Assembly (NCBI GenBank): GCA_034006405.1
Contig: JAVESW010000020.1
Location: forward strand, 1 to 16,187
Origin: Candidatus Methanomethylophilaceae archaeon
Lineage (GTDB): Archaea > Thermoplasmatota > Thermoplasmata > Methanomassiliicoccales > Methanomethylophilaceae
Reading direction: 5' to 3'
Length of the DNA stretch: 16,187 bases
Under the pieces are notes generated by a model. The model made no database searches, was not told the DNA's origin, and saw only the letters and a program-made list of their open reading frames with translations. This document shows positions 215-12,897 of the stretch, piece after piece. The stretch's first letter is position 1. Each line of letters opens with the position of its first letter. The translations under genes were made by a program, and so were the position numbers.

Positions 215-1183
215 CTAAACAGCGACAAACATTTCCGATTTATTTGTTAATGTAGTTATTATAATACATATAATTTGGTATTCAAAAATGCGACTAAATA
301 CCTGCATCAAAATAACCAACGAGGAAGGAAAAACCCTCAACGGCATCGCCGAAAACCCCGGCTTCATCAGCCCCACCGACCTCATCACCGCCTGGGTCCA
401 CCCCCCCATCTGCAAAAAGGCAACATACGGCGAACCGTCCCCTGACCACGTCGCCGAACGGACGACATCATAATAATGACGCGAATATCTTAAGGGGACC
501 TGCTTCCCTTCCGGAAGATTTGCCACACTATGAAGGATGAGGATCTTTTCCCAGAACGTTCGTTCGGGATGTACGGTTAAAACATCGGTTGACTTTTGCC
601 CGAACAGGTTCGGATATTTTTCGGCAGAATACGGCTGGATCATCTCCCAGCCGGCTGGAGTGCATGCTGCAAGAGGACCTATCTCCAGACGTATCTCCTG
701 AAGGATCGATGCATCGGAAAAACCATTTGGATACCTGAAGATTATGGTCTGCTTATCATTATCCAGGATCCCCATATCTACCGAAATGCCAAGTTCCTCT
801 GACAAATCATTTCGGATCTGCGGGAGAAAGAGATCCTTGAGAAATATCTCTGCACGGCGGTCAGCCTCTTTGTTAAAGTGATCCTGCCGATTCTTTGTCC
901 GATCCTTCCAGGGTTCGTCTTTTTCATAATCCAGAATACACCAATCAAGAATCAGATCGATATCCTCAGAAAAACGATCAATCAGCCCGTATGCTTTTGA
1001 TAAACTCGTTCCTCCCTTGAAGGTCAGATTATTTTTCCAGGGACATTCGTGAAATAGATAATCCAGCATCCAGCAGACCCAGAAGTCTTTCTCAATAATT
1101 GCCTCATTGATCCCCATTTTGTCGGCAGTGTTCCTGAATAATGCTTCACGATCTTCTGCCGGGCGTTTTGCAATATTTTTCAT
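215..1183 (-). CDS. abiEii: AbiEii/AbiGii-family nucleotidyltransferase toxin (DUF1814) of a type IV toxin-antitoxin system
   Basis: 322-aa ORF with hallmarks of the family: N-terminal EKDFWVCWMLDYLF, the nucleotidyltransferase motif FKGGTSLSKAYGLIDRFSEDIDL, and a C-terminal RYSRHYYDV. Its start lies 6 nt after the stop of the upstream antitoxin-like gene on the same strand. The last ~25 aa (AT-rich, IICIIITTL...) may be read-through rather than true coding. Confidence 0.75.
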   Translation of the reverse strand: MKNIAKRPAEDREALFRNTADKMGINEAIIEKDFWVCWMLDYLFHECPWKNNLTFKGGTSLSKAYGLIDRFSEDIDLILDWCILDYEKDEPWKDRTKNRQDHFNKEADRRAEIFLKDLFLPQIRNDLSEELGISVDMGILDNDKQTIIFRYPNGFSDASILQEIRLEIGPLAACTPAGWEMIQPYSAEKYPNLFGQKSTDVLTVHPERTFWEKILILHSVANLPEGKQVPLRYSRHYYDVVRSATWSGDGSPYVAFLQMGGWTQAVMRSVGLMKPGFSAMPLRVFPSSLVILMQVFSRIFEYQIICIIITTLTNKSEMFVAV

Positions 1184-1189
1184 GGTTTT

Positions 1190-1795
1190 TTATGCACATA
1201 TTTGTCTGACCGTTCCGGAGATCCAGACAGATGAGCGCTTTGTGTCCTCTAAGAGGGATGTTTTTTCTCCAGGGGTGAGCCTGTCGGATAATTGTCTGAT
1301 GAATTTTTCATTCATCTTATCTTTTCCGATCGCTTTCAATGCCTGAATGATAAGTGCGGATTTTTCTGAAAGATTTGTGATGTCTTTATTTGATGTATGC
1401 TTGAATTGTATCGTGACATTTCCGTATGCGTATTTTTTGTAGGGGCCGTCGGAAGCATATGTCCATGAGGCGGGGACCTGGGTGGATATTCCGAGCATAT
1501 TGAGGGCAGCATCTTCATAGGGGACAATTGTCCAACCGAAATTGCGTGCAAGAGCTTTTGCTATTTCATGGGGCGAGGGAGCGACGTATTCATTAAGAAA
1601 TGTGTTGTAGGCGGGATATTCGTATATGCCCCACATGATCCGGCGGATCGTTTTGTCTTGAACTAGCCGTGATAATACTTTTTTTATCGTTGGGATCGGG
1701 GCGATGTCGGTAAAATCAGAGATGACGAATATTGTGCCTTTCTTTGATGTGGTTATTCGCTCTTTGATTTTTTCATGATAGGTTTCTTTCCGCAT
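1190..1795 (-). CDS. abiEi: AbiEi-like (DUF6088-type) antitoxin / transcriptional regulator partnered with AbiEii
   Basis: The ORF is open to 1843, but the likely start is the internal Met at 1795 (MRKETYHEKIKERI...). The TIFVISDF...VLSRLVQDKTIRRIMWGIYEYP stretch matches the N-terminal region of AbiEi antitoxins. Gene order (antitoxin immediately upstream, co-directional, 6-nt gap to toxin) is the canonical AbiE arrangement. An AT-rich TATA-like stretch (minus-strand aataatatata, about 1825-1838) sits just upstream. Confidence 0.6.
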   Translation of the reverse strand: MRKETYHEKIKERITTSKKGTIFVISDFTDIAPIPTIKKVLSRLVQDKTIRRIMWGIYEYPAYNTFLNEYVAPSPHEIAKALARNFGWTIVPYEDAALNMLGISTQVPASWTYASDGPYKKYAYGNVTIQFKHTSNKDITNLSEKSALIIQALKAIGKDKMNEKFIRQLSDRLTPGEKTSLLEDTKRSSVWISGTVRQICA

Positions 1796-1975
1796 TATCG
1801 TGCGTATAGTTATGTCACTAAAAGTATATATTATTGGTGACAAGAGGGAGTTTGTAATATGGAGTGGGGATAAGAAAAATCAACCGTGTTCGCCGACTAT
1901 CGGTTGGTTCTCCGATCCAGCCTGACTTTGACAGTTAGCTGAAAGTATCCAGAAGGCCCAACCGATAAAACTGAT

Positions 1976-2504
1976 GTACTTCGATTTCGTGTACGGCATT
2001 TGTGTGAGAGTATGAGAAAAACCAACCGCGAATCGGCGCGAATCCGCCCTTCGGGCGAGATTAATCGGATTTGCTTATCCTCACTCTCGCTCGTTGGGTC
2101 TGGTCGCAAGGCAAATCCTTGCTCCGCTAAGGGCGAGCCTGTCGGCTCACCCCGCACGACCCAACGGCTCGTCCCTTCATCGGGATCGTTCGGGCAAATC
2201 CTGTCGCCGCCCCAGCGGCTCCCATGAGGAAGAGACTCATCGAGCAGTCCTAAATCTGAAAAATGTTCTTTTGCTACCCATCCTGAAATGAGATGGAGAA
2301 GGAAATCATCATTGGGGGGCGCCGGGGCGCCGACAGGATTTGCCCGAACGATCCCGATGAGGGATGAGCAAGACAGCGAAGCTGGATTGCGAAAGTGAGG
2401 ATAAGCAAATCCGATTTTTTTCGCCCGAAGGGCGGATTTGCGCCGATTCGCGGTTGGTTTTATCTCTTGTGTCTACACTAATGCCGTACACGAAATCGAA
2501 GTAC
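1976..2504. repeat. Large imperfect inverted-repeat element: left arm ~1976-2212 and right arm ~2325-2504 around a ~110-bp spacer. Candidate MITE-like or snap-back noncoding element.
   Basis: Seen directly. 1976-1999 (gtacttcgatttcgtgtacggcat) is the exact reverse complement of 2481-2504. aaaaccaaccgcgaatcggcgcgaatccgcccttcgggcga (about 2025-2060) is mirrored at about 2420-2460. cccttcatcgggatcgttcgggcaaatcctgtcg (about 2173-2207) is mirrored at about 2331-2365. All ORFs called across it (1897..2157, 2000..2227, 2094..2291, 2309..2491) are mutually overlapping and low-complexity, consistent with noncoding sequence. Confidence 0.75.
2091..2170. repeat. ~80-bp segment present only in the left arm of the inverted repeat (nested insertion). 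It carries a GC-rich hairpin, gcaaggcaaatccttgc at 2106-2122, that recurs elsewhere in the window.
   Basis: The right arm has only ~24 bp (2365-2388) at the corresponding position. The hairpin core gcaagg-caaaN-ccttgc recurs at 14471-14487 and, reverse-complemented, at 9990-10006. Confidence 0.55.
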
Positions 2505-2560
2505 GTCTTATAATTACGTCAATTTTTTTCGGTTAAGATTGCCTCGCGTAACTCCTATTC

Positions 2561-2597: not shown

Positions 2598-2834
2598 TCA
2601 ACGCTCCTCATCTAATTCATCTACTCTTACTCTATCAGAAAGGGAACAGCGGTTCATTACCGGATCCCAGATTTCACAGGCATCTTTAAAACAGATTCCA
2701 GGAACCTGATCTAATGTTGCACAGTAACCGAGAGTAAATGGACACAATTTATGATTATTATCGGCAAAGACCATACGATTTGAGATATGGTCATACAGTT
2801 GGAGTCTGCCGTGTTCATCAGTCCATTTACGCAT
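2598..2834 (-). CDS. Small Cys-rich hypothetical protein (78 aa, 5 Cys), last gene of the minus-strand operon
   Basis: Its ATG (reverse complement of 2832-2834) lies immediately after the TGA of the upstream SPFH gene (2838-2840), implying translational coupling. The poly-T terminator follows. No recognisable family; it could be spurious. Confidence 0.35.
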   Translation of the reverse strand: MRKWTDEHGRLQLYDHISNRMVFADNNHKLCPFTLGYCATLDQVPGICFKDACEIWDPVMNRCSLSDRVRVDELDEER

Positions 2835-2837
2835 ATT

Positions 2838-4469
2838 TCATTCCTGTTTCTTCCCGCAGCTTGGACAGAAAACATCTCCGTTTGGAACATTCGCTGAACA
2901 GTATTGACATTGTGTACTTCCTTCAGGAGCGACATTAACAACAACCGGCGCCCCCATGCCCCCTGTAACAACGGTTGCCCCGGGATTTTGAGCCGTAGAG
3001 CGGGCAGTCGCCGTATTCCCCATAGCATTCAGCGCAGAATTCATTACCTCCTTCATCTGCTCGGCATTCTCCTTATATTGACTCTGCATCATCATGTTGA
3101 ATGCCTGCTGATCCTTGATGCGCAATTCGTTCAATTGTTCAACTGATTCAAGTTTGGCACGAGTTGCTAATGCCTCGGCAGCTGCCTTCGGGTCTTTTGC
3201 ATTCATCGCAAGGATCTGTTCTGGCGTCAGGCTGTTTGCTCTCTTTGCAAGTTCAAGCTGAACGAGGGCGCCGACCTTCTGATCATCGACCAGAGAAATG
3301 AGCACTTCGATCGATGCCTCTGAGAGATTTGCGATCTTTTGTCTCTCATCCTCGCGTTTGATCGCCTTGTTTTGTCTTTTGAACTCCAGTAGCTGCTCGA
3401 TCTCCTTGCGGTCTTTTTCCAGTTCGTGATCATGTCTTGCAGAATCACGAGCAAGCTCATGACCTAAATTCGCATCAGCTCTCTGGTTCCCCAATTCCTG
3501 ATCAAGGGATTTTATGGTATGGTCCGCATTAATCTGACCAACGGCATCTTCCGTTCCTGCTTCACGCAGATAGGCTTTCTTTTCATACTCTGCTTTGGCT
3601 TTGCCCACTTCGATCTGCAAACTCTCGCGTGCTCCAAGAACCTCTTTCCAGGCTCCTTCATCAAAACCCACACAGTTCAGATGAGAAATCTCTATACCCC
3701 TGTTACCAAAGTTTGCATTCAGATTTTTCTTGAACTCATTACTCAATTCCTGACTGAGAACTGCATTTCCGTACAGTTCTTCGATATTATATTGGGATAT
3801 TTTATTCTGGGCAATATTTTTGAGTTCTGCATGAATGCAGTTCTCGATGTCCGCAAGACTAACGTGCTGTTCACGTTTCAGATAGTTTTCAAGAAAAGCG
3901 ATCGGATCTTTGATCTGTGCCGTCACTTTACCTGCAGCTCCAACGGATATTGCATTCTTTGAGCGTAACTCACCTTTTGGAATCATGAAGGTGAGAGGAA
4001 TCTCTCCGGCATCAACAAGAATAACCGTTGTTCGCTCATCAAGTCTCAACTGACCAATGGTATCAAAGATGTTTCCAAGATTGTATGCGCCTGCAGGAAG
4101 TGTTCCTTTGTAAATTCCTCCCTGAAGAAGAATGGCTTTTGTTCCCTGTTCTACAGTGAGTCGTTTTGCAAAGACACCTCGGAGATCCTGAATATCAAAT
4201 CTCTGCGCGAAGTCGCCCGGCATTCTCATCCACTGACGATTTTTGCCTAGTTCTTTGGAGGTGTCGGCAATTCGTGTTGTTTGCGGCGATTCCAAGAGCT
4301 TTGCACCGCATTTTCCACAAAATGCAGCTCCCTGATTTAGTTTTGCACCACATACAGGACAGGTGCCACTTTCCGTTCCTCCAAGTCTTTTACCGCACGC
4401 TCCGCAAAACTGACTTCCGGCGGGGTTTTCATGACCACAGGAACAGGTAATTTTTTTATTAAACAGCAT
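2838..4469 (-). CDS. SPFH/Band-7 (stomatin/flotillin-like; Band_7_1 / YdjI-like) protein with N-terminal tandem zinc ribbons and a C-terminal zinc ribbon
   Basis: 543 aa. The N-terminus has three CxxC...CxxC pairs (CSCGHENPAGSQFCGACG, CPVCGAKLNQGAAFCGKCG). The C-terminus has CQYCSANVPNGDVFCPSCG. The central region follows the SPFH pattern (TTVILVDAGEIPLTFMIPKGELRSKNAISVGAAGKVTAQIKDPIAFLENY ... NFGNRGIEISHLNCVGFD), followed by a long E/A/K-rich, flotillin-like coiled coil. Start is ATG at 4467-4469. Confidence 0.6.
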   Translation of the reverse strand: MLFNKKITCSCGHENPAGSQFCGACGKRLGGTESGTCPVCGAKLNQGAAFCGKCGAKLLESPQTTRIADTSKELGKNRQWMRMPGDFAQRFDIQDLRGVFAKRLTVEQGTKAILLQGGIYKGTLPAGAYNLGNIFDTIGQLRLDERTTVILVDAGEIPLTFMIPKGELRSKNAISVGAAGKVTAQIKDPIAFLENYLKREQHVSLADIENCIHAELKNIAQNKISQYNIEELYGNAVLSQELSNEFKKNLNANFGNRGIEISHLNCVGFDEGAWKEVLGARESLQIEVGKAKAEYEKKAYLREAGTEDAVGQINADHTIKSLDQELGNQRADANLGHELARDSARHDHELEKDRKEIEQLLEFKRQNKAIKREDERQKIANLSEASIEVLISLVDDQKVGALVQLELAKRANSLTPEQILAMNAKDPKAAAEALATRAKLESVEQLNELRIKDQQAFNMMMQSQYKENAEQMKEVMNSALNAMGNTATARSTAQNPGATVVTGGMGAPVVVNVAPEGSTQCQYCSANVPNGDVFCPSCGKKQE

Positions 4470-4514: not shown

Positions 4515-5078
4515 TTAAATTCTAGGCTCCAGAATGAGATTTTCCACCTCAATCTTTGCAGAAGCAATACTTTCATCATCTACCCTTAGTGCTTTCATAA
4601 GACCCAGAATTTTATCATATTCATCAGATGATCCATTATTTGTTGTGGCAAGGATTTCAGTGATCCGCTTTTTTTCGGTTTCTGCCTGAACCTCCGTATT
4701 CTCACGCTCTTTCAACAGCTGATCTACATCGATCTTACTGAATATGTTGTGTTTTTGATGTGCCTGGTCTTTCTTTTCCTCTTTTATCCGTAGAAGATTT
4801 GCGACTGCCATCTGTTTGTTTTCGGTTGCGAGGATCTGCTGGAGGAGTTCATTTTTTATGAGCATTTGATTCGTTACTTGCCGGGCTGCAAACTGAGTTT
4901 CGATTTCTGATGCAGCATTTTTTCCTGCATAGAGATTTGCTTCAATTTTTTCGTCAGCTTCTTTCATTTGTTTCATAAGAGTGGAATATTGGTATTCCAG
5001 CTCAGCGGCCGTTATGCGCAGATCACCAGAGGAGATCTTGTCAAGGCCGTTTTTCCGTCCAAAGATCCCGCGGGCCAT
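4515..5078 (-). CDS. ESCRT-III/Snf7 (CdvB)- or PspA-like small coiled-coil protein, paralog 2
   Basis: 187 aa, starting MARGIFGRK (compare MxxFGK/MGIFSR N-termini of Snf7 and PspA). Predicted long helical hairpin, then an acidic C-terminus with an amphipathic helix (DEYDKILGLMKALRVDDESIASAKIEVENL) resembling a MIT-interacting motif. The ATG sits 2 nt after the stop of the upstream paralog, so the two are coupled. Assigned from architecture only. Confidence 0.45.
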   Translation of the reverse strand: MARGIFGRKNGLDKISSGDLRITAAELEYQYSTLMKQMKEADEKIEANLYAGKNAASEIETQFAARQVTNQMLIKNELLQQILATENKQMAVANLLRIKEEKKDQAHQKHNIFSKIDVDQLLKERENTEVQAETEKKRITEILATTNNGSSDEYDKILGLMKALRVDDESIASAKIEVENLILEPRI

Positions 5079-5080
5079 TT

Positions 5081-5698
5081 TTAGAACTCACTTTTTTCTA
5101 AGGATTTTTCGATGTCTTTCTCGATCGAGAGCATGCTTTCCGCTTCGGATACATTCATACTGCCTGCCTCAACACTGTTCCAGATATCAAACATCTGCCT
5201 TTCTCCTTCGTCAACATCAGAATCAGAAGCCGTGGTTTCGTCAAGTGCAACGATGTTGTTGAGATTTTCGAGAACTTTCTCAAAATTATTCCCGGACAGG
5301 TTGACTTTGATGAGGGACTCCTCGAAGCTCTTAGGAGAGAGACTCTGAATTGTTTTCCAGATCTGAGTGTTCTCCAGATCACGCTGATACGTTTTGAGGA
5401 TGAGGAGGTTGGACACAAACATGTACTGTTTGTGTAAGGTCAGGAAGTTCTTGATTTTGAGTTTTCCGCTCATATCAAGTTGTTTTAACTCCTGCGCGAT
5501 CATCTTTTTCTTGATCAGATCGGCTCCTATACCCTCATTAAAAAGGGATTTTTTCGCTTTTTCAATTGTCTCGATCTCTTTTCTGAGACGATTGATCCTG
5601 ATTTTGAGTCTGAGCTCTTCTTCCTGGAGTTCTGTGCTCGTGAATTTGTCGATCGCAGTATTTTTTTTGAACGGATTTTTCAGTTCCATTTTTGTCAC
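5081..5698 (-). CDS. ESCRT-III/Snf7 (CdvB)- or PspA-like small coiled-coil protein, paralog 1
   Basis: 205 aa. The ORF begins with GTG at 5698 and the first ATG is at 5689 (MELKNPFKK...). It has a basic N-terminal helix (ELRLKIRINRLRKEIETIEKAKK), a second long helix, and a strongly acidic C-terminus (DETTASDSDVDEGERQMFDIWNSVEAGSMNVSEAESMLSIEKDIEKSLEKSEF), typical of ESCRT-III autoinhibitory/MIM tails. A minus-strand TATA-like atttatatc (5722-5730) lies about 25-35 nt upstream. Confidence 0.45.
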   Translation of the reverse strand: MTKMELKNPFKKNTAIDKFTSTELQEEELRLKIRINRLRKEIETIEKAKKSLFNEGIGADLIKKKMIAQELKQLDMSGKLKIKNFLTLHKQYMFVSNLLILKTYQRDLENTQIWKTIQSLSPKSFEESLIKVNLSGNNFEKVLENLNNIVALDETTASDSDVDEGERQMFDIWNSVEAGSMNVSEAESMLSIEKDIEKSLEKSEF

Positions 5699-5828
5699 AA
5701 GGATTTCATTGGTTTTTCATCGATATAAATCTATTCTCCAAAACGGATTATAAATATAATAACCTTAAAATCGAATGTCCAATGTGGTGATAGAAATATA
5801 TAGTCATAAAACATATTCCTTATTTAAT
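5699..5828. promoter_or_regulatory. AT-rich divergent promoter region between the minus-strand ESCRT-III-like/SPFH operon and the plus-strand TPR/MIT-AAA/Sel1 operon
   Basis: TATA-like boxes on both strands (5722-5730 for the minus operon; ttataaatataat at 5748-5760 and gaaatatatag at 5794-5804 for the plus operon). Their spacing is consistent with leaderless or short-leader archaeal transcripts starting at 5689/5698 and at 5775 or 5829. Confidence 0.4.
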
Positions 5829-6344
5829 ATGGATTATCTGATTTTGGTAGATTATCAGTCCGATGCGGAGCGTAAACGGATAGATTACGCTATTGAACGC
5901 TGGAAGGATAAGGGGAAAATACATAAAACGAAAGGAACGGTGATCCATTATGCCGGAGATGATGTGGATGATTTTCTTGATGATCTTTATTCCCGTCTGA
6001 GTGTTGGAACCGGATCCGTTCATATTTTTGCAGGAGACATCTATTCTCCTGATATCAATGAGCAAACAACCCAGCTGAAATATACTACGACTATAGATTC
6101 AACTGCGGTTGAGAATTTCCTGAAATATCTCATGAATAAACTCGGGGCTTCGTTCGAAGGAACAAAACAGGGAATCAAATCATATACCGCATACACAAAG
6201 AAAGGACAGGCAGGGATCGATGTTACTTTAACGGCTGGAGATAAGACGGCTGTTTTAGTTGTTGTGCGGGGGTACGGGGACGTAGTTTCGTTTATTGCTG
6301 GGAGAATCGATAAGGAACTGAAGGTTTTCCTAGAGGTAGAGTGA
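5775..6344 (+). CDS. Hypothetical protein, first gene of the plus-strand operon
   Basis: 189-aa ORF. An alternative leaderless start at ATG 5829 (MDYLILVDYQSD...) is equally plausible. The stop (6342-6344) lies 3 nt before the next ATG (6348). No family recognised; the N-terminal YLILVDYQSDAERKRIDYAIERW has only a faint Cas2-like flavour. Confidence 0.55.
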   Translation: MSNVVIEIYSHKTYSLFNMDYLILVDYQSDAERKRIDYAIERWKDKGKIHKTKGTVIHYAGDDVDDFLDDLYSRLSVGTGSVHIFAGDIYSPDINEQTTQLKYTTTIDSTAVENFLKYLMNKLGASFEGTKQGIKSYTAYTKKGQAGIDVTLTAGDKTAVLVVVRGYGDVVSFIAGRIDKELKVFLEVE

Positions 6345-6347
6345 ACA

Positions 6348-7082
6348 ATGATAAAAACTGAACGCTATCAAATTTTGTACAATGAAGGCAGAATGAATTT
6401 GAACAGAGGAAGATACACGGATGCTCTCAAATCATTTGAAAATGCAAGACGCGAATTGGATAATTCATATGTATATTCCGGAATTGGGCGTGCATATTAT
6501 GGTCTTGGAAAATACAGCGATGCTCTGAAAAATTTTGAAATAGCATGCATGAGATACTCTGGAAATATTCAGGCAACTCACTGGATGGCAAAGACTCTCG
6601 GAAAAATGAAGCGCTATAACGAGGCTGAAACACTGTTTAATGTGGTGTTGAGAAGATTAGGGAACGGGCCTGTAAATTTCTATCAGGAAGTCTTTGCCGA
6701 CTATGAAGATATGAAAAATGAAAGAGCTGGAATCAAACCTAGGGATTCGTTTTCTCAACCTCTGATGTCATATTCTTTGAACAAAGATTCGTCTACAAAA
6801 ATAATTTTCAACGGTGATATTTCTGCCCCTGTAAATATTGGGGGAGTCCAGGCAACTGATAACGCAATACTGAATCGTCCGGTAATAATGAGAGAGCCCG
6901 GTACTGGCTGCAATGTCCCAATTGAACAAATCATCCAAAGATCCGAAGAGCGAAATACCGTGGATATAAAACCAACAGGTATCCTTTCACGTATTATTAA
7001 GAAAGAAACGTGTGCGAATTGTGGGGCACCGACTCAGGAAGATCAACACTATTGTAACAAGTGCGGGAGGAAACTCCAATGA
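6348..7082 (+). CDS. TPR-repeat protein with a conserved C-terminal linker motif (GGVQATDNAILNRPV) and a C-terminal zinc ribbon (CANCG...YCNKCG)
   Basis: 244 aa. The N-terminal ~120 aa hold three TPR-like units (YTDALKSFENA..., YSDALKNFEIA..., YNEAETLFNVV...). The C-terminal CxxC-x10-CxxC motif is at the end. Its TGA forms an ATGA overlap with the downstream AAA ATPase start. Confidence 0.75.
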   Translation: MIKTERYQILYNEGRMNLNRGRYTDALKSFENARRELDNSYVYSGIGRAYYGLGKYSDALKNFEIACMRYSGNIQATHWMAKTLGKMKRYNEAETLFNVVLRRLGNGPVNFYQEVFADYEDMKNERAGIKPRDSFSQPLMSYSLNKDSSTKIIFNGDISAPVNIGGVQATDNAILNRPVIMREPGTGCNVPIEQIIQRSEERNTVDIKPTGILSRIIKKETCANCGAPTQEDQHYCNKCGRKLQ

Positions 7083-8248
7083 AAATCGATCTCAGCGGAC
7101 CTCTATATGATGCCCTGAAAAAAGCCACCGCAGAGTATGCATCCCTGATTGAGAAAAATGACCTTCCCGGAGCCACAAAAAAAGCTGCTGAGATCGCGAG
7201 GTTCTATCATGAACTTGCAAACATGAATCCCGTGAACAAAAAAGAATATCTCGAGCGTGCAGCAAAATGGGAGAGAGTATCATCTGGAAAAATACGATCA
7301 AAACAAAAACCGTCCCAGTCACCTCATACTGAAACCGAGAAAGAAGAGGAAAATGAAATGAGCCAAAAAGCCTCCTCTCTTATCAAGACCTCCAATGTCA
7401 AATGGTCCGATATCGGCGGGCTTGATTCTGTAAAAAAACTGATGATGGAAACGGTGGTGATCGCAGGTCTCCAAAAACCCGAGTCCATCAAACCCTGGAA
7501 AGGCATTCTTCTCTTTGGACCTCCGGGGACCGGGAAAACCCTTCTTGCGGCTGCGGCGGCAGGAAGTCTGCATGCAACCTTCTATGATGTGAAATCGGAG
7601 AGTGTGCTCTCAAAATATTTCGGTGAATCTTCAAAACTGATTTCTGCGCTCTACAACTCGGCAAGAGATCACTCCCCCTCGATCGTTTTCATTGATGAGT
7701 TCGATGCTCTCAGTCAGTCCCGGGACGGGGAAACAAGCGAGGCGACGCGTAAAGTCCTCTCCAGCCTCCTTACAGAATTGGATGGGCTTTCCGACAAGAA
7801 AAGTGATCAGCTTCTCCTCACTCTTGCAGCGACAAATACCCCGTGGGATCTGGATACAGCAGTTTTATCCCGTTTTCCACGGCGGATCTATGTTCCTCTT
7901 CCGGATCAGAAAGCGTGTAAGGAGATCATAAAGATCCAGACAAAAGGCATGGACATCTCAGGAGTTTCTCTTGAGAGCATTTCCGAAAAGTGTGCGGAGA
8001 TGCTCTACTCAGGACGGGATATTTCCAACTTCTGTCAGCAGGCGATATGGACGATGATCCATAGAGTGAACCCAGATCTCTACAAAATGGCTGAATTATC
8101 ATTTGATGAACTGAAAATGCGGAATTTGCAGACGATCCCTCTTGCTGATGATGATTTTCGTGAAGCTTTTATGAAGATCCGCTCACCAATAACAAAAAAT
8201 AAGATTGAACAATACGAACAATGGAACGATGAGTGTGGTGAAGTGTAA
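7079..8248 (+). CDS. Vps4/CdvC-like meiotic-clade AAA+ ATPase with an N-terminal MIT domain
   Basis: The ORF track starts at GTG 7061, but ATG 7079 has a strong GGAGG at 7066-7070 and forms an ATGA overlap with the upstream stop. The N-terminal ~70 aa (LYDALKKATAEYASLIEKNDLPGATKKAAEIARFYHELANMNPVNKKEYLERAAKWERV) fit the three-helix MIT pattern of Vps4. The AAA core has Walker A GPPGTGKT and Walker B IVFIDEFDAL, and the Vps4/katanin-specific stretch LAATNTPWDLDTAVLSRFPRRIYVPLPD (compare Vps4 [28 protein letters not shown]). Confidence 0.85.
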   Translation: MKIDLSGPLYDALKKATAEYASLIEKNDLPGATKKAAEIARFYHELANMNPVNKKEYLERAAKWERVSSGKIRSKQKPSQSPHTETEKEEENEMSQKASSLIKTSNVKWSDIGGLDSVKKLMMETVVIAGLQKPESIKPWKGILLFGPPGTGKTLLAAAAAGSLHATFYDVKSESVLSKYFGESSKLISALYNSARDHSPSIVFIDEFDALSQSRDGETSEATRKVLSSLLTELDGLSDKKSDQLLLTLAATNTPWDLDTAVLSRFPRRIYVPLPDQKACKEIIKIQTKGMDISGVSLESISEKCAEMLYSGRDISNFCQQAIWTMIHRVNPDLYKMAELSFDELKMRNLQTIPLADDDFREAFMKIRSPITKNKIEQYEQWNDECGEV

Positions 8249-8250: not shown

Positions 8251-9864
8251 ATGGGATTTAGCTTTTTTAATAAGGAAAAACGAGCAGCGGAACAGTACAC
8301 GAAAGCAGCAGAACAGGGAGATGCACGTGCACAATTCAATCTTGGAGTGTGCTATGCCCTTGGGATGGGGGTGGAGAAAGACCAGAAAAAAGCGGTATAT
8401 TGGTACACGAAAGCAGCAGAACAGGGACATGCAGATGCACAAAATTATCTCGGGTTGTACTATGATTTTGAGGATGAGGAGAAGGATAGGGAGGAGAAAG
8501 AATGGGTTTCCAGTACAAGAGCAAGGGCAGAACAGGGAGATGCTGATACACAAAATCATCTCGGGATGTGCTATGACTTTGAGATGGGGGTGAAGAAAGA
8601 CCAAAAAAAAGCGGTATATTGGTACACAAAAGCAGCGGAGCAGGGAAATGCGTTTGCACAAAATTTTCTCGGTGAGCACTATAAGGGGGGTGTGGGAGTG
8701 GAAAAAGACCAGAAAAAAGCGGTATATTGGTACACAAAAGCAGCAGACCAGGGAGATGCACGTGCGGGATATGCACGTGCACAAGTCAATCTCGGGGTGT
8801 GCTATGAGAGGGGTGTGGGGGTGGAGAAAGACCCGAAAAAAGCGATATATTGGTACATGAAAGCAGCAGAACAGGGAGATGCTGATGCACAAGTCAATCT
8901 CGGGGTGTGCTATGAGAGGGGTGTGGGGGTGGAGAAAGACCCGAAAAAAGCGGTGGAGTGGTGGACAAAAGCAGCAGAACCACGCCCAACATTATCGAGA
9001 GATGTAGTAGACCCGGGAAATGAAGAGGCACAAACCAATCTCGGGTGGTGCTATGAAAATGGGGTGGGTGTAGAAAAAGACCAGAAAAAAGCGGTGTATT
9101 GGTACACAAAAGCAGCAGACGAGGGAGGTGAACGTGCAGGATATGCACGTGAGGGATATGCACGTGCACAAAATAATCTCGGGTTGTGCTATGAAAATGG
9201 GGTGGGGGTGGAGAAAGACCAGAAAAAAGCAGTATATTGGTACACGAAAGCAGCAGAGCAGGGAAATGCAATGGCACAAGATAATCTTGGGAGGTGCTAT
9301 GAGAGGGGTGTGGGGGTGGAGAAAGACCTGAAAAAAGTTGTATATTGGTACACAAAAGCAGCGGAGCAGGGACATGCTGATGCACAATTCAATCTCGGGT
9401 CGTGCTATGAGAATGGGGTGGGTGTGGAAAAAGATCTGAAAAAAGCGGTGATGTGGTTTACCAAAGCAGCGGAGCAGGGAAATGCACGTGCACAAACTAA
9501 TCTAGAGTTGTGTTATAAGAATGGGGTGGAAAAAGACCAGAAAAATGCGGGATATGGTTACACGAAAGAAGCAGAACAAGGAGATGCTGATGCACAAACC
9601 AATCTCGGGTTGTGCTATGAATTGGGGGAGGCGGTAGAAAAAGACCTGAAAAAAATTGTGTACAATGTAAACTATTTTTCGGCGGAAAAAATAATTCAAG
9701 GAAATATCGGTGTCTATGCAACAGATGATGCGATCGTCCATCGTCCGGTTGTGGGTGAGAAGGGATCAGATGATCCGAAAAATATCTTTTGCCCGTATTG
9801 CGGCAGACAACTTCCAGACGATGCAAGATTCTGCACTGGGTGCGGAAAACAAATTAGTGGATAA
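8251..9864 (+). CDS. Sel1-repeat (SLR) protein with about 13 tandem repeats, the conserved linker motif (GVYATDDAIVHRPV) and a C-terminal zinc ribbon (CPYCGRQLPDDARFCTGCG)
   Basis: 537 aa. The canonical Sel1 consensus recurs (AQxNLGxCYExGxGVEKDxKKAVYWYTKAAEQGxAxAQ). Its ATG is 3 nt after the AAA ATPase stop, so they are coupled. The many antisense ORFs over this region are artefacts of the DNA-level tandem repeat. Confidence 0.85.
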   Translation: MGFSFFNKEKRAAEQYTKAAEQGDARAQFNLGVCYALGMGVEKDQKKAVYWYTKAAEQGHADAQNYLGLYYDFEDEEKDREEKEWVSSTRARAEQGDADTQNHLGMCYDFEMGVKKDQKKAVYWYTKAAEQGNAFAQNFLGEHYKGGVGVEKDQKKAVYWYTKAADQGDARAGYARAQVNLGVCYERGVGVEKDPKKAIYWYMKAAEQGDADAQVNLGVCYERGVGVEKDPKKAVEWWTKAAEPRPTLSRDVVDPGNEEAQTNLGWCYENGVGVEKDQKKAVYWYTKAADEGGERAGYAREGYARAQNNLGLCYENGVGVEKDQKKAVYWYTKAAEQGNAMAQDNLGRCYERGVGVEKDLKKVVYWYTKAAEQGHADAQFNLGSCYENGVGVEKDLKKAVMWFTKAAEQGNARAQTNLELCYKNGVEKDQKNAGYGYTKEAEQGDADAQTNLGLCYELGEAVEKDLKKIVYNVNYFSAEKIIQGNIGVYATDDAIVHRPVVGEKGSDDPKNIFCPYCGRQLPDDARFCTGCGKQISG

Positions 9865-10474
9865 TTATTCCATCTTTATCCCGTCATGTTTTTGCCTGCT
9901 CTCCTCGCGGCGTGTCTTTCTTACAATGACTGGGTTCAGCATACACAAACGCTGCATCCTGGAGCAAAGCGAGCGAAACGAAGCGGAAAGCAAGGCTTTG
10001 CCTTGCGCACTGCCTTGTTCAATTTTGAGACCTTTCAGGTCAAGCTGCCTCTGAAATTCCTGCCAAACCAATTTGTCAACGCCTGATTCGGACATGCGTT
10101 CCCGAAATAACCAGATCGTTGAATTGTCAGGTATTTTGTCAGGACACACAAGAGGCCGCAAGCTAGAACTTGCTCACCGTTTCGGGCTAATGCCCTCACT
10201 TACAATGCCAAAAGGAGAGACGATCATAGATTTCACGTTCAACGGCGAGATCAGACAGATTATACCAGACTACCAGAAGCTGAATCTTGAACATGAGTAT
10301 TACATCGACATTGGGATGACCGCCTTTGTCGGATTTGTTCGAATACATGGATTCAAGAAGAGGGCGAAACACATCCCAATCAAGAGTTTTACCAACGTCG
10401 GAGAGACGGTCGCCAAGTTTTTCATAACGCTCGTGATATGCCTGGTTGAGACCAAAACTGCTGAAAGTCCCCAT
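9865..10474 (-). pseudogene. Remnant of an IS5-family (DDE) transposase gene: N-terminal portion only, split across two frames
   Basis: 10196..10474 (-) encodes the InsH-like N-terminal domain (LDWDVFRPLLESMYSNKSDKGGHPNVDVILMFKIQLLVVWYNLSDLAVEREIYDRLSF). 9865..10161 (-) continues in another frame with the IS5 signature PDNSTIWLFRERMSESGVDKLVWQEFQRQLDLKGLKIEQG. Similarity is then lost where the GC-rich hairpin repeat (9990-10006) sits. The catalytic DDE region is absent. Confidence 0.6.
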
Positions 10475-10560: not shown

Positions 10561-12897
10561 TTATTTAAATGGATTGTATGTCAGCGATATTAACCAACTG
10601 AGAGGCATACTAAGTATGAATCCACATATTGGTCCTCCAATCCATACACTTACTACTTGAATCCAGCCAGGAATATTCCATCCATCACCCTGTGTACCCA
10701 TAACAATTGCAAACACAATAAACATAACTACCACCATGCCAATAACTGTAACCCCAATATCAGACGCTTGTTGATGATCTCGGCTCATGGAAATGTACTC
10801 ACCACGCTTCTTATGCATGTATGACAGAGTATCTTTTGCATCTTTGTATTTTGAATACTCTTTTAATGATGATACGGCTTTATTATAATTATTGGTAAAA
10901 GCATTCTTTGCATAATTATAATTATCCTGATTATCCTTTATAAAGGAGTTCTGAATTAACAAATTTAAATAATCATCAAATTCAGAACGTATTGAGACAC
11001 ATACATGTTTACATTGTTCTTTACGTATTGGTTCTAAACATTGCTGAGCTAACTCACTTGAGTCCCTGTAACCATCCAGTGAAATAAATAGTGTTTGAGC
11101 ACGTGAATAATCACCAGATTCCATCGCTCTCTTTGCATCTATATAAATCCTCTCAGTATCCAGAGCGAGACATTTATTCGCCAGTTCAGACGAATCCTTA
11201 TAATTCCCTAAGGAGAGGGATTCATTCCGAGCACGGATATAGTCACCACCATTCATTAAAGCAATTGTATCTTTGTATTTTTTTTCAGTCTCCAACTCGA
11301 TACATTTTTTCACCAACTCTGCTGAGTCCTTGTACTCTTTTAACGATAAAAATACTTCACGGGCACTAAGATAAACCCCCATATTCATCATATTGATTGC
11401 ATCCGTATATTTCTTATCAATATCCAGTGCCGTACATTTCTTTGCCAGTTCAACTGAATCTTTATAACCCTTTAATGATTCAAAAATACCACGAGCAGTT
11501 ATATAATAGCCACCGTTCATAGTATTTTTTGCATCTATATAAATCCTCTCAGTATCCAGAGCGAGACATTTATTCGCCAGTTCAGACGAATCCCTATGGT
11601 CTTTGATTTTAAGGAATTTCTCCCTCGCCTCCATAAATTTATTGGAATTCAGGATTTCCTTTGCTTCAGCATACCAGACATCATGATTCTGATAGAGATA
11701 CTGTTCAAGAGTCTGTTTATACTCTGCATCAGCAAAACGAATGGCTTTCTTAAATAGGTCTTCATCCCGCAAATATATTTTAAGTTTTGTTAATTCATCT
11801 GGCGTGCGGACATTTTTTTGAACCATCAGTTTTCCTATGTAGGCTTGTGAGTATTCGGGATCGAAATCCAATGCTCGCTCAAGTAATTCATCTGCCCTGC
11901 TGATTTCTCTTTCCTCTAAGAAAAGGAAAGCACGTTTTACTAAGGGTGCTGCATTACTATCTGATTTTGAAGATGCAGATGCAGCAGATGTTTGTTCTGT
12001 TCCAACCAGTTTTTTCAGATTTCTGGTTAAATCAGGCATAAACGCAATATTAGACATATCCAACGCTTGAAGATGTGAGAACTCATCCGGCAAATCATAT
12101 GCATCCATATCCCTGAAACAAGGAATAAGAGTTTTTTTCTGACTCTTATCTATTTTCATCATGTGCAAATAACGTGACCACTCATTTTTAACCCAGATGG
12201 CATTGAAATATTCCTGCCTCGTTCCAAGAACAAGCATCACTTTTGCAGAAGATAAAGCTGCATAAATATATGGTTCATATTCTACACCAAGCTTGTCTTC
12301 AAGTGTGATAGCAGCATAGAACGTTTTCAAACCAGAATTAGTCAGTTCATGATAAATTTCATTGGCAATTACGCTGTCACGTGTTTTCTGACCATTTTCA
12401 TCTTTTTCCTTGTAACAGATAAAAACATCAAATGGCTTCTCAGATTTAACAATATCTAGAATCTTTCGTTGGAGATCATTGATTTCTTTTGCCTGAATCT
12501 CATAAACCAACTTGGCAGTTGAATCTGCATTCTGAAGTGTAGCAATGTAGTCTGAGTCAGTTAAAATAGATTCGAGTTGTGTTCTATGACATGTTGGGTG
12601 TCTGTTTCCAGTTTGAGTATCCTCAACATATTCTACACCATACTTACATAGAACAATCCCCCAATGTGCCTCTGCTTGAGTGTTATCAATGTCTAAAATT
12701 TTTTCATAAGCATCAACTGCTTTATCAAATTCACATTTTATGCGTAGATTATTTGCACGGTTGAAAAGATTGATGACAATATCATCACCACTTGTTGAAA
12801 GGGTCTGTTCCGTACCGCAATTATCACAAATGATAACTGAAACACCATTTGGAACATCCAAATTGCCACCACACATTTTACATTTGAATTGTGTCAT
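10561..12897 (-). CDS. Multidomain protein: N-terminal zinc ribbon, TPR-like helix pair, TIR domain, at least five tandem 44-aa repeats, and two C-terminal transmembrane helices
   Basis: 778 aa. Zinc ribbon: CKMCGGNLDVPNGVSVIICDNCG. TIR signature: FDVFICYKEKDENGQKTRDSVIANEIYHELTNSGLKTFYAAITLEDKLGVEYEPYIYAALSSAKVMLVLGTRQEYFNAIWVKNEWSRY. The 44-aa repeat recurs as YKDSxELAxKCxxLDxEKxYxDAxxxMNxGxYxxARxxFxSLxx. C-terminal hydrophobic stretches are VTVIGMVVVMFIVFAIVMG and IQVVSVWIGGPICGFILSMPLSWLISL. The region is AT-rich compared with upstream genes. Confidence 0.8.
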   Translation of the reverse strand: MTQFKCKMCGGNLDVPNGVSVIICDNCGTEQTLSTSGDDIVINLFNRANNLRIKCEFDKAVDAYEKILDIDNTQAEAHWGIVLCKYGVEYVEDTQTGNRHPTCHRTQLESILTDSDYIATLQNADSTAKLVYEIQAKEINDLQRKILDIVKSEKPFDVFICYKEKDENGQKTRDSVIANEIYHELTNSGLKTFYAAITLEDKLGVEYEPYIYAALSSAKVMLVLGTRQEYFNAIWVKNEWSRYLHMMKIDKSQKKTLIPCFRDMDAYDLPDEFSHLQALDMSNIAFMPDLTRNLKKLVGTEQTSAASASSKSDSNAAPLVKRAFLFLEEREISRADELLERALDFDPEYSQAYIGKLMVQKNVRTPDELTKLKIYLRDEDLFKKAIRFADAEYKQTLEQYLYQNHDVWYAEAKEILNSNKFMEAREKFLKIKDHRDSSELANKCLALDTERIYIDAKNTMNGGYYITARGIFESLKGYKDSVELAKKCTALDIDKKYTDAINMMNMGVYLSAREVFLSLKEYKDSAELVKKCIELETEKKYKDTIALMNGGDYIRARNESLSLGNYKDSSELANKCLALDTERIYIDAKRAMESGDYSRAQTLFISLDGYRDSSELAQQCLEPIRKEQCKHVCVSIRSEFDDYLNLLIQNSFIKDNQDNYNYAKNAFTNNYNKAVSSLKEYSKYKDAKDTLSYMHKKRGEYISMSRDHQQASDIGVTVIGMVVVMFIVFAIVMGTQGDGWNIPGWIQVVSVWIGGPICGFILSMPLSWLISLTYNPFK

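What the first reader, a model, noticed from the sequence alone, without database searches (positions are those of the whole stretch)
4515..5698. Two tandem, coupled ESCRT-III/PspA-like paralogs with acidic C-terminal tails
Both proteins (205 and 187 aa) have a basic N-terminal helix, long predicted coiled-coil hairpins, and a strongly acidic C-terminal region ending in an amphipathic helix. This is the ESCRT-III autoinhibition plus MIM layout. One starts MARGIFGRK, reminiscent of Snf7/PspA N-terminal membrane-binding motifs. Paired paralogs resemble the CdvB-paralog or Vipp1-paralog situation, where one nucleates and the other remodels.
Basis: inference. Interest (0 to 1): 0.6.

Follow-up and report, generated by a model that had tools for sequence, protein, structure and literature searches.

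The report
Tandem archaeal ESCRT-III (Snf7-like) gene pair

Summary
Two coding genes lie on the minus strand: A (5081-5689, 202 aa from the ATG that homologues use) and B (4515-5078, 187 aa). Two bases separate A's stop from B's start.

Neither protein hits Pfam Snf7 or PspA directly. A and B are nevertheless true paralogues (hhalign 99.7%, E 2e-25, end to end) once B's fast-evolving family is collected from 23 related loci.

Several weak, concordant signals link both to ESCRT-III:
- Family members give sub-threshold, full-length Pfam Snf7 hits.
- A profile hit to CdvB falls in register.
- hhalign against eukaryotic ESCRT-III gives E 3e-4 (A) and 2e-3 (B), against 0.07-0.6 for reversed controls.
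- Foldseek top ranks are CdvB/CdvB2 for A and CHMP1B, Vipp1 and Snf7 for B.
- A Vps4-like AAA ATPase accompanies the pair in every related locus with enough sequence.

Makarova et al. 2024 (mBio) already list the inferred Methanocorpusculum orthologue of A as arCOG09747 "Snf7 family protein". They also list the tandem partner family arCOG09749, the SPFH protein and the Cas2-like protein as parts of the euryarchaeal "Main"-clade ESCRT system.

MIT and MIM could not be confirmed, and function remains untested. Verdict: interpretation supported, already known, moderate-to-low interest.

The parts
5081..5689 (-). Gene A: ESCRT-III/Snf7-superfamily protein, 202 aa (205 aa if the upstream GTG 5698 is used). 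By inference it belongs to arCOG09747. It evolves slowly.
   Evidence: - ORF and start position.
- Homologues: 153 and 136 representatives.
- AF2 model: pLDDT 78, pTM 0.67, hairpin 21-103, disordered acidic linker 153-162, C-terminal helices 165-204.
- A3 family profile against PDB: CdvB (9s9j) E 0.039, in register.
- hhalign against eukaryotic ESCRT-III: E 3e-4 over 120 columns.
- Foldseek: CdvB/CdvB2 take 9 of the top 11 ranks, all with E >= 0.3.
- Literature: WP_042699366 (M. bavaricum) is listed as arCOG09747 'Snf7 family protein'. Its accession number lies between B's orthologue WP_042699363 and the Cas2-like protein WP_042699369.
4515..5078 (-). Gene B: fast-evolving ESCRT-III paralogue of A, 187 aa, with N-terminal MARGIFGRK (an alpha-0-like MxxxFGxK motif). 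It is probably a diverged member of arCOG09749.
   Evidence: - ORF.
- The start lies 2 nt after A's stop.
- A homologous gene sits directly downstream of A in 23 distinct loci.
- hhalign of the A family against the B family: 99.7%, E 1.8e-25, 190 columns.
- hhalign of the B family against eukaryotic ESCRT-III: E 2.3e-3 over 142 columns, against 0.59 for the reversed control.
- Foldseek top hits: CHMP1B E 9e-3 with probability 1.00, then Vipp1, CHMP2A-CHMP3, Asgard ESCRT-IIIB and Snf7 core.
- UniRef names the M. parvum orthologue 'PspA/IM30 family protein'.
2838..4469 (-). Zinc-ribbon / SPFH (Band 7) / coiled-coil / zinc-ribbon protein, 543 aa, in the same operon downstream of B. It matches arCOG15283, 'SPFH family protein, ESCRT system component'.
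   Evidence: - Pfam: Band_7 E 2.9e-10, Zn_Ribbon_1 E 3e-15.
- It is conserved downstream of B in Methanocorpusculum, Methanoplanus, Methanoculleus, Methanocalculus and Methanogenium loci.
- Literature listing for Methanocorpusculum.
2598..2834 (-). Small Cys-containing ORF (78 aa) that follows the SPFH gene. It is conserved in Methanocorpusculum-type loci. Function is unknown.
   Evidence: - ORF.
- A 78-aa gene occupies the same position in L001-L004.
- tblastn finds 83-84% identity in L001-L004 and L009, and 68% in L011.
- No family hit.
5775..6344 (+). Divergently transcribed 189-aa protein. By position it is probably arCOG08177 (inactivated Cas2-like domain plus TBP-fold DUF3568 domain), an ESCRT-system component.
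   Evidence: - ORF. No direct Pfam hit.
- It is conserved immediately upstream of A and divergent from it in most Methanomicrobiales loci: 44-94% identity in L001-L011 and L013-L020.
- Its N-terminus contains AERKRIDY, a motif that also appears in many rows of the paper's Fig. S3 text for arCOG08177. The held text of that figure is garbled, with repeated rows, so this is only a pointer.
- M. bavaricum WP_042699369 is listed as arCOG08177. By accession order it would sit at this position.
6348..7082 (+). TPR protein with a C-terminal zinc ribbon, 244 aa. It is a variable-copy adaptor-like gene between the Cas2-like gene and the ATPase.
   Evidence: - Pfam: TPR_2 E 1.3e-11, Zn_Ribbon_1 E 2.5e-5.
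- One to three such genes occupy this position in L001-L004.
7079..8248 (+). Vps4/CdvC-like AAA+ ATPase, 389 aa from ATG 7079 (395 aa from GTG 7061). A conserved roughly 70-residue N-terminal domain is present (predicted helical from sequence pattern only); whether it is an MIT domain is unconfirmed.
   Evidence: - Pfam: AAA E 2e-36; Vps4_C 20.5 bits against a 21.3-bit cut-off.
- NCBIfam: CdvC 186 bits and CDC48 200 bits, both below their cut-offs.
- It is found next to A in 29 of 30 related loci; the exception, L012, is a 2.2-kb contig.
- M. bavaricum WP_042700467 is placed in the Vps4 tree.
- MIT was not detected.
8251..9864 (+). Sel1-repeat protein with a C-terminal zinc ribbon, 537 aa. It follows the ATPase, and its repeat number varies between related loci.
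   Evidence: - Pfam: Sel1 E 6e-123 over 10 repeats, Zn_Ribbon_1 E 3.8e-8.
- Homologues lie downstream of the ATPase in L002, L003, L004 and L009.

Best explanation
A and B are two diverged paralogues of the ESCRT-III (Snf7/CdvB) superfamily and are expressed from one operon.

Proposed mechanism:
- By analogy with characterised ESCRT-III proteins, each is a helical-hairpin protein.
- Each would bind the cytoplasmic face of the membrane through its basic N-terminal half and its MxxxFGxK-type N-terminus.
- Together they would co-polymerise into filaments that bend or repair membrane.
- The Vps4-like AAA+ ATPase encoded across the divergent promoter would remodel or disassemble the polymer, probably by engaging the acidic C-terminal tail.
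- The zinc-ribbon/SPFH protein in the same operon would act as a membrane-domain scaffold or recruiter. The Cas2-like/TBP-fold protein and the TPR/Sel1 zinc-ribbon proteins would act as adaptors.
- Makarova et al. 2024 report that archaea with these complex ESCRT systems also keep a mostly complete FtsZ division machinery. The likely role is therefore vesicle formation, protein sorting or membrane repair rather than cell division.

Shown here: the genes, their paralogy, their conserved linkage to the ATPase, SPFH and Cas2-like genes, and an ESCRT-III-like predicted fold.

Inferred: homology to Snf7 (from several weak concordant signals plus the published arCOG assignment), co-polymerisation, tail-ATPase contact, and the cellular role.
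For: Paralogy:
- hhalign of the A family against the B family gives 99.7%, E 1.8e-25, over 190 colinear columns.

Link to Snf7:
- 3 of 96 A-family members hit Pfam Snf7. Individual scans show P0204 at E 3.4e-4 covering profile positions 4-166 of 171, and P0158 at E 0.04 covering 5-151.
- The A3 profile hits CdvB (9s9j) at E 0.039 in the same register, 22-89 against 23-93.
- hhalign against an alignment of five Pfam-verified eukaryotic ESCRT-III proteins gives E 3e-4 over 120 columns for A and E 2.3e-3 over 142 columns for B. Reversed-sequence controls give E 0.07-0.6 over 12-30 columns.

Fold:
- The AF2 models show a long hairpin, further helices and, in A, a disordered acidic linker.
- In Foldseek against PDB, CdvB/CdvB2 fill 9 of the top 11 ranks for A.
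- For B, CHMP1B gives E 9e-3, probability 1.00, TM about 0.5. Vipp1, PspA-type Vipp1 rings, CHMP2A-CHMP3, Asgard ESCRT-IIIB and Snf7 core are all in the top 15.

Context:
- The A-B pair occurs with a Vps4-like AAA gene in 29 of 30 loci across Methanomicrobiales, Archaeoglobi and a Thermoplasmatales bin. In Methanoregula and Archaeoglobi the order is a co-directional A-B-AAA.

Literature:
- Makarova et al. 2024 (PMC10936438) define the euryarchaeal 'Main' Vps4 clade, which includes Methanomicrobiales.
- They list arCOG09747 and arCOG09749 as 'Snf7 family protein'. The two are tandem in Thermococcus gammatolerans and carry adjacent accessions in Methanoplanus limicola.
- They list arCOG08177 and the SPFH family arCOG15283 as ESCRT components, with Methanocorpusculum entries.
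Against: - Neither A nor B reaches any Pfam, NCBIfam or PADLOC threshold on its own.
- The best Snf7 score in the family is 20.8 bits, against a 27.3-bit cut-off.
- hhalign probabilities against ESCRT-III are only 40% (A) and 12% (B), and my reference alignment had just five sequences.
- All Foldseek E-values for A are >= 0.3.
- B's model has low confidence after residue 100.
- An MIT domain on the ATPase was not detectable, so the proposed tail-ATPase contact has no support here.
- By sequence the ATPase scores at least as well against Cdc48/VAT and katanin as against CdvC.
- The identification of A with WP_042699366 rests on accession order, not on a sequence I could read.
Confidence: 0.8

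Rival explanations
1. A and B are PspA/IM30/Vipp1-type proteins, the bacterial branch of the superfamily. They would act as a membrane-stress or repair pair recruited by the SPFH protein, as PspA is by YdjI in Bacillus subtilis, and would work independently of the ATPase.
For: - An SPFH protein with zinc ribbons is in the same operon. The Makarova paper cites the B. subtilis YdjI-PspA link.
- UniRef names the M. parvum B orthologue 'PspA/IM30 family protein'.
- Vipp1/PspA structures are among B's top Foldseek hits.
- A review states that some Methanotecta acquired PspA from bacteria.
Against: - There is no PF04012 hit for A or B. PspA_IM30 is not among the 25 most-matched families listed for the 96 A-family or 24 B-family members.
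- hhalign against E. coli PspA is no better than the reversed control.
- Sequence-level signals point to Snf7/CdvB instead.
- A Vps4-like ATPase is tightly linked in all lineages.
Confidence: 0.08
2. A and B are generic coiled-coil proteins, such as the 'chromosome assembly protein' of the NCBI annotation or an SMC-like accessory. On this view the resemblance to ESCRT-III is compositional only.
For: - NCBI and UniRef names for A homologues read 'chromosome assembly protein'.
- Rad50 and SNAP-25 coiled-coil hits have E-values similar to the CdvB hit in PDB profile searches.
Against: - The alignments to ESCRT-III are colinear over 120-142 columns, whereas the reversed controls align over only 12-30 columns.
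- Foldseek top ranks are enriched in ESCRT-III out of 350,000 chains.
- Linkage to a Vps4-like ATPase is conserved.
- Both families carry an ESCRT-III-like N-terminal MxxxFGxK motif.
- The arCOG assignment agrees.
Confidence: 0.04
3. The locus is a membrane-acting conflict or defence system rather than a housekeeping one. The ESCRT-III pair, SPFH protein and ATPase would respond to invasion, with the variable TPR/Sel1 zinc-ribbon proteins as sensors.
For: - The A-like domain is fused to SPFH and TIR in P0183 and to TIR in P0191.
- The number and length of the TPR/Sel1 zinc-ribbon genes vary between close relatives.
- The ATPase hits PADLOC IetA models at E 7e-36.
- The window also holds a TIR protein and an AbiEi-like gene.
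Against: - The TIR protein has no homologue in the 30 related loci. It lies beyond IS fragments in DNA of lower GC.
- A and B have no PADLOC hits.
- The IetA hit reflects the shared AAA fold.
- The locus is chromosomal and conserved across orders, next to core genes such as the mcr operon in L001.
- A is highly conserved, unlike typical defence genes.
Confidence: 0.08

Closest known systems
Euryarchaeal 'Main'-clade ESCRT system: Snf7-family proteins arCOG09747 and arCOG09749 (Makarova et al. 2024, mBio, PMC10936438)
   Same: - The gene set matches: two tandem roughly 200-aa Snf7-family genes, a Vps4-family ATPase, the Cas2-like/TBP-fold arCOG08177 protein and the SPFH arCOG15283 protein.
- Methanocorpusculum and Methanoplanus entries are tabulated. 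A is 82% identical to the Methanocorpusculum protein.
   Different: - No clear arCOG09748 (roughly 600-aa wH-domain protein) is evident in this window. TPR and Sel1 zinc-ribbon proteins occupy that space.
- No kinase or phosphatase genes are in the window, although Methanoplanus and Methanoculleus loci have them.
- The Methanocorpusculum-type B orthologue (WP_042699363) does not appear in the stored part of Table S1, so B may have escaped the arCOG09749 assignment.
Crenarchaeal CdvB / CdvB1 / CdvB2 with CdvC (Cdv cell-division system)
   Same: - Multiple ESCRT-III paralogues work with a Vps4-type ATPase.
- These are the best sequence-profile and Foldseek matches for A.
   Different: - There is no CdvA and no winged-helix extension on A or B.
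- According to the cited paper, archaea with these systems also keep FtsZ, so a division role is unlikely.
- Sequence similarity is marginal: E 0.039.
Eukaryotic ESCRT-III (CHMP1B, CHMP2A/3, CHMP4/Snf7)
   Same: - The layout is shared: N-terminal MxxxFGxK-type motif, long alpha1-alpha2 hairpin, acidic C-terminal part.
- The alignment is colinear over 120-142 columns.
- Open-state CHMP1B is B's best structural match.
   Different: - Pfam Snf7 scores are below threshold.
- A MIM and an MIT partner were not demonstrated.
- No ESCRT-I/II or ubiquitin machinery is in the locus.
Bacterial PspA/Vipp1 with an SPFH partner (B. subtilis ydjFGHI)
   Same: An ESCRT-III-superfamily protein is encoded alongside SPFH and zinc-ribbon proteins, suggesting the SPFH protein recruits it to the membrane.
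   Different: - No PspA_IM30 profile signal; PspA_IM30 is absent from the most-matched families listed for family members.
- An AAA+ Vps4-like ATPase is present, which PspA systems lack.

Membership tests
ESCRT-III / Snf7 (Pfam PF03357) | Sequence match to the Snf7 profile at or above the curated threshold | tested here: not met
   - A and B have no Snf7 hit at E <= 1.
- The best family member, P0204, scores 20.8 bits against a 27.3-bit cut-off, E 3.4e-4, but covers profile positions 4-166 of 171.
- 3 of 96 A-family members hit Snf7 at E <= 0.1.
ESCRT-III / Snf7 (Pfam PF03357) | Profile-profile homology to bona fide ESCRT-III proteins | tested here: inconclusive
   - hhalign against five Pfam-verified eukaryotic ESCRT-III proteins: A3 E 3e-4 (probability 40%, 120 columns); B family E 2.3e-3 (probability 12%, 142 columns).
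- Reversed controls: E 0.07-0.6 over 12-30 columns.
- PDB profile search: CdvB E 0.039 in register.
- A full HHpred search against Pfam/PDB70 could not be run.
ESCRT-III / Snf7 (Pfam PF03357) | ESCRT-III fold: long alpha1-alpha2 hairpin followed by shorter helices and a flexible acidic C-terminal region | tested here: met
   - AF2 models.
- Foldseek top ranks are ESCRT-III-superfamily structures for both. For B: CHMP1B E 9e-3, probability 1.00, TM about 0.5; Snf7 core TMt 0.66. For A: CdvB/CdvB2 fill 9 of the top 11 ranks, but with E >= 0.3.
ESCRT-III / Snf7 (Pfam PF03357) | Genomic or functional coupling to a Vps4-family AAA+ ATPase | tested here: met
   - An AAA gene 51-88% identical to the window's lies next to A in 29 of 30 loci.
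- In Methanoregula and Archaeoglobi the order is a co-directional A-B-AAA.
- Physical interaction was not tested.
ESCRT-III / Snf7 (Pfam PF03357) | C-terminal MIM that binds the MIT domain of Vps4 | tested here: inconclusive
   - A ends in a conserved amphipathic S-I-E-K-D-I-E-K-S-L-E-K helix.
- No MIT domain was detectable in the ATPase N-terminus by Pfam, PDB profile search or hhalign; the hhalign result equalled its reversed control.
- No complex prediction was available.
ESCRT-III / Snf7 (Pfam PF03357) | Polymerisation on membranes and membrane remodelling | not testable with these tools
   This needs biochemistry, electron microscopy or genetics.
arCOG09747 / arCOG09749 (euryarchaeal Snf7-family pair) | Orthology to tabulated members and the same locus architecture | tested here: met
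   - A is 82% identical to the Methanocorpusculum protein P0016.
- M. bavaricum WP_042699366 (arCOG09747) lies by accession order between B's orthologue WP_042699363 and arCOG08177 WP_042699369.
- M. limicola has adjacent accessions for arCOG09749 and arCOG09747.
- B's family includes the Methanoplanus B-position gene.
- The accession-order step is inference.
PspA / IM30 / Vipp1 (Pfam PF04012) | Sequence match to the PspA_IM30 profile | tested here: not met
   - No hit for A or B. PspA_IM30 is not among the 25 most-matched families listed for the 96 A-family or 24 B-family members.
- hhalign against E. coli PspA gives E 0.04-0.24, no better than the reversed control.
Vps4 / CdvC (neighbouring ATPase) | Single AAA+ domain, Vps4 C-terminal helix and N-terminal MIT domain | tested here: inconclusive
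   - AAA E 2e-36. Vps4_C scores 20.5 bits against a 21.3-bit cut-off.
- NCBIfam CdvC scores 186 bits against a 650-bit cut-off.
- MIT was not detected.
- The literature places the Methanocorpusculum orthologue in the Vps4 tree.

The most novel reading that the evidence does not exclude
The slow-evolving A and fast-evolving B may form an obligate ESCRT-III heteropolymer. It would be directed by a zinc-ribbon/SPFH scaffold and a variable set of TPR/Sel1 zinc-ribbon proteins that share a common C-terminal docking module. Together these would make a cargo- or threat-sensing membrane system in methanogens, possibly with an immune role. The immune idea is hinted at by fusions of the A-like domain to SPFH and TIR elsewhere. 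This would go beyond the generic 'vesicle formation' role now assumed.
Probability: 0.12. Interest if true: 0.65.

Novelty: already known. Interest (0 to 1): 0.3.

Why it matters
The euryarchaeal ESCRT-like systems are known only from comparative genomics. No member has been studied experimentally.

This window adds little beyond that catalogue. Three points are useful:
- B, annotated 'hypothetical protein' in most records, is a genuine and very fast-evolving ESCRT-III paralogue of A.
- The NCBI name 'chromosome assembly protein' for A is probably a misnomer.
- The A-B-Vps4 triad is the conserved core across Methanomicrobiales and Archaeoglobi; a Thermoplasmatales-labelled bin has A and the ATPase but no B.

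If studied, the pair would offer a compact two-subunit ESCRT-III system with an SPFH partner in FtsZ-containing archaea. That bears on what ESCRT-III did before it was recruited for cell division or endosomal sorting.

Tried and rejected
Searches that gave nothing:
- Direct Pfam, NCBIfam and PADLOC scans of A and B gave no hits.
- BLASTP of A against B gave nothing.
- hhalign of the shallow A2 and A1 alignments gave 5%. Paralogy only appeared after B-position genes were collected from related loci.
- The afdb50 fold library was unavailable.

Searches that failed or were wasted:
A2 worked.
- The last homologue search, with a 71-aa CdvB fragment, returned a single partial protein and was effectively wasted. 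I replaced it with eukaryotic ESCRT-III sequences recalled from memory and verified against Pfam.

MIT detection on the ATPase N-terminus:
- phmmer, a family profile against PDB, a Pfam scan of 15 orthologues and hhalign against Vps4 MIT sequences all failed.

Context checks:
- The context of the SPFH/A-like/TIR fusion P0183 was too short to interpret.
- The window contains no tRNA or Rfam family.

Readings considered and rejected:
- PspA-type proteins, generic coiled-coil or SMC-like proteins, and a defence-island component. The TIR gene is not part of the conserved locus.
Full report
**What is in the sequence**

The minus strand carries an operon of four ORFs:
- A, 5081-5698 as listed.
- B, 4515-5078.
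- A 543-aa protein, 2838-4469.
- A 78-aa ORF, 2598-2834.

All 35 aligned homologues of A begin at the position of ATG 5689 (MELKN...). A is therefore most likely 202 aa, not 205. A's TAA and B's ATG are two bases apart.

Four genes are transcribed divergently from the same intergenic region:
- A 189-aa protein (5775-6344).
- A TPR/zinc-ribbon protein (6348-7082).
- An AAA+ ATPase (7061/7079-8248).
- A Sel1/zinc-ribbon protein (8251-9864).

Pfam finds Band_7/SPFH plus zinc ribbons in the 543-aa protein. In the ATPase it finds AAA (E 2e-36) and a near-threshold Vps4_C match. It finds nothing for A, B or the 189-aa protein. NCBIfam and PADLOC add nothing for A or B.

**Are they real genes, and whose?**

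- A is 100% identical to a protein of a MAG labelled Methanomethylophilaceae. It is 82% identical to a Methanocorpusculum protein.
- A has 153 homologues down to 58% identity in Methanocalculus, Methanoplanus and Methanoculleus. Many are named 'chromosome assembly protein'.
- B has only 12 close homologues.
- The same divergent locus sits on long chromosomal contigs of Methanocorpusculum, next to the mcr operon in L001. It also occurs in Methanoplanus endosymbiosus and Methanoculleus.
- A genome scan found 23 more loci. They include Methanoregula, Methanogenium, Archaeoglobi and a Thermoplasmatales bin.

**A and B are paralogues**

- BLASTP and shallow profile comparison saw no similarity between A and B.
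- I extracted the ORF directly downstream of each A homologue. A 183-226-aa gene is there in nearly every locus that has sequence, starting from 4 bases before A's stop to 45 bases after it.
- These genes form one family with the window's B. phmmer gives E 1e-5 to 1e-23 against the distant members, and jackhmmer recovers all of them (alignment A5).
- hhalign of a strict A-family alignment (A4) against this B family gives 99.7% probability, E 1.8e-25, over 190 colinear columns.
- A is conserved at 44-88% identity across orders. B drops to 15-30% between genera.

**Link to ESCRT-III**

No single test is decisive, but the tests agree.

- An exhaustive profile search with the A family found 136 representatives, almost all about 200 aa.
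- Three of 96 hit Pfam Snf7. Individual scans show P0204 at E 3.4e-4 and P0158 at E 0.04. Both cover nearly the whole Snf7 model but fall below its cut-off.
- The broad A profile hits Sulfolobus CdvB (9s9j) at E 0.039 in the same register. Unrelated coiled coils score similarly.
- The B profile hits no ESCRT-III protein in PDB sequences.
- I could not retrieve an archaeal Snf7 alignment.
- hhalign against that ESCRT-III alignment gives E 3e-4 for A (120 columns, residues about 31-159 against 24-150). It gives E 2.3e-3 for B (142 columns).
- Reversed-sequence controls give E 0.07-0.6 over 12-30 columns. PspA gives nothing above its own reversed control.

**Structure**

- The AlphaFold model of A has pLDDT 78 and pTM 0.67. 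It shows a hairpin (21-56, 61-103), short helices to residue 152, a disordered acidic linker (153-162) and C-terminal helices.
- The model of B is confident only for the hairpin (17-53, 58-115), which continues as an extended helix.
- Foldseek on A gives no significant E-value, but CdvB/CdvB2 fill 9 of the top 11 ranks out of 350,000 chains.
- Foldseek on B ranks open-state CHMP1B first (E 9e-3, probability 1.00, TM about 0.5). Vipp1, CHMP2A-CHMP3, Asgard ESCRT-IIIB and Snf7 core follow.

At the sequence level both families begin with an MxxxFGxK-type motif: MARGIFGRK in B, MGFLSSLFG in its relatives, and M....F.K.N.ID in A. From my own knowledge, this resembles the N-termini of CHMP2A, CHMP3, CHMP4B, Snf7 and PspA; compare the sequences used.

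It matches only weakly for B.

**Context**

- A Vps4-like AAA gene accompanies A in 29 of 30 loci. The exception is a 2.2-kb contig.
- In Methanoregula and Archaeoglobi the three genes run A-B-AAA on one strand.
- The SPFH protein and the 189-aa protein are conserved in the Methanocorpusculum/Methanomicrobiaceae-type loci.
The ATPase has a conserved N-terminal domain of about 70 residues, but four tests found no MIT relationship: phmmer, a profile against PDB, Pfam scans of 15 orthologues, and hhalign against Vps4 MIT sequences.
- By sequence the ATPase is about equally close to Cdc48/VAT D2, katanin and CdvC.

**Comparison with what is known**

Makarova et al. 2024 (mBio, PMC10936438) describe a 'Main' clade of euryarchaeal Vps4 systems. 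It covers Thermococcales, Methanococcales, Methanomicrobiales and Halobacteriales. It contains Vps4, ESCRT-III, arCOG08177 (inactivated Cas2 plus TBP-fold domain) and arCOG09748, often with kinases and phosphatases.

Their tables list the following:
- arCOG09747 and arCOG09749 as 'Snf7 family protein'. The two genes are tandem and overlapping in Thermococcus gammatolerans, and they carry adjacent accessions in Methanoplanus limicola.
- For Methanocorpusculum bavaricum: Vps4 WP_042700467, arCOG08177 WP_042699369, arCOG09747 WP_042699366 and SPFH arCOG15283 WP_042699360.

B's M. bavaricum orthologue is WP_042699363. The accession order 360-363-366-369 therefore reproduces the window's gene order SPFH-B-A-Cas2-like. 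This makes A the arCOG09747 member by inference.

WP_042699363 itself does not appear in the stored part of Table S1. The Methanocorpusculum-type B may thus have escaped assignment. UniRef does call the M. parvum copy 'PspA/IM30 family protein'.

The Methanoplanus and Methanoculleus loci also carry the kinase and PP2C phosphatase genes that the paper describes.

**Mechanism**

The best-supported reading is as follows:
- A and B form an ESCRT-III-type co-polymer on the cytoplasmic membrane face.
- The Vps4-like ATPase remodels it.
- The zinc-ribbon/SPFH protein acts as scaffold or recruiter. This parallels the SPFH-PspA link in B. subtilis that the paper cites.
- The Cas2-like and TPR/Sel1 zinc-ribbon proteins act as adaptors.

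The paper argues that such systems in FtsZ-bearing euryarchaea serve vesicle formation or protein sorting rather than division. All of this is inference; nothing functional has been tested.

**Rivals**

- PspA-type pair: about 0.08. There is no PF04012 signal, and a Vps4-like ATPase is linked.
- Generic coiled coil or 'chromosome assembly': about 0.04.
- Defence system: about 0.08. The A-like domain is fused to SPFH and TIR in P0183 and P0191. However, the window's TIR gene is absent from all related loci and lies beyond IS fragments in lower-GC DNA.

**Verdict**

The finding is already known from comparative genomics. Interest is about 0.3. The modest additions are the explicit demonstration that B is an ESCRT-III paralogue of A and that A-B-Vps4 is the conserved core.

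Noticed in passing
window 1973-2507: A nested, imperfect inverted repeat of about 535 nt: arms 1973-2005/2475-2507, 2018-2090/2389-2461 and 2174-2224/2313-2363, 90-94% complementary. It lies between the 78-aa ORF and an AbiEi-like gene. No tRNA or Rfam family is found there. It may be two inverted copies of a small repeat element.
   Followed up: partly
window 6348-7082, 8251-9864 and 13091-14062 (C-termini): Three TPR/Sel1 repeat proteins end in the same module: a 'G..(D/N)(D/N)A(I/V)(L/V)xR(P/T)' motif followed by a CxxC...CxxC zinc ribbon. tblastn finds the same tail in several related loci. It may be a common docking module for variable adaptors of the system.
   Followed up: partly
P0183 (792 aa; L031 1076-3454) and P0191 (730 aa): The A-like ESCRT-III domain occurs fused to an N-terminal SPFH domain and a C-terminal TIR domain (P0183), or to TIR alone (P0191). 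The one available contig is short, with a NIF-phosphatase gene as neighbour. This hints at an effector-coupled version of the SPFH/ESCRT-III pairing.
   Followed up: partly
window 9865-10474 and 10561-12897: IS5-like transposase fragments are followed by a 778-aa protein with a zinc ribbon, TPR, a TIR domain, repeats and a likely C-terminal membrane segment. GC drops from about 0.45 to 0.35 here. The TIR protein has no homologue in the 30 related loci, so this looks like a separate inserted region.
   Followed up: partly
window 215-1843 (minus strand): A 217-aa AbiEi-like antitoxin (NCBIfam TAA_AbiEi, E 1.2e-5) lies upstream of a 322-aa ORF with no family hit that, from my reading of its sequence only, might be an AbiEii-type toxin. 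This may be a type IV toxin-antitoxin pair flanking the ESCRT locus.
   Followed up: no
window 2598-2834 (minus strand): A conserved 78-aa Cys-containing ORF lies directly after the SPFH gene. It is 83-84% identical in L001-L004 and L009 and 68% in L011. It has no family hit, and its role in the operon is unknown.
   Followed up: partly
L010 3751-4170: In one related contig, binned as Cloacimonadota and probably mis-binned, an extra 139-aa ORF sits between the A and B homologues. Several other contigs carrying this archaeal locus are labelled as bacterial bins (Paludibacter, Spirochaetaceae, Clostridia, Bacilli), which suggests binning errors.
   Followed up: no
L021-L029 (e.g. L023 7001-9458): In Methanoregula and Archaeoglobi the core is a co-directional A-B-AAA operon. 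tblastn finds no SPFH gene there, and a Cas2-like gene only weakly in two Archaeoglobi loci (L024, L027). This indicates a minimal three-gene version of the system.
   Followed up: partly
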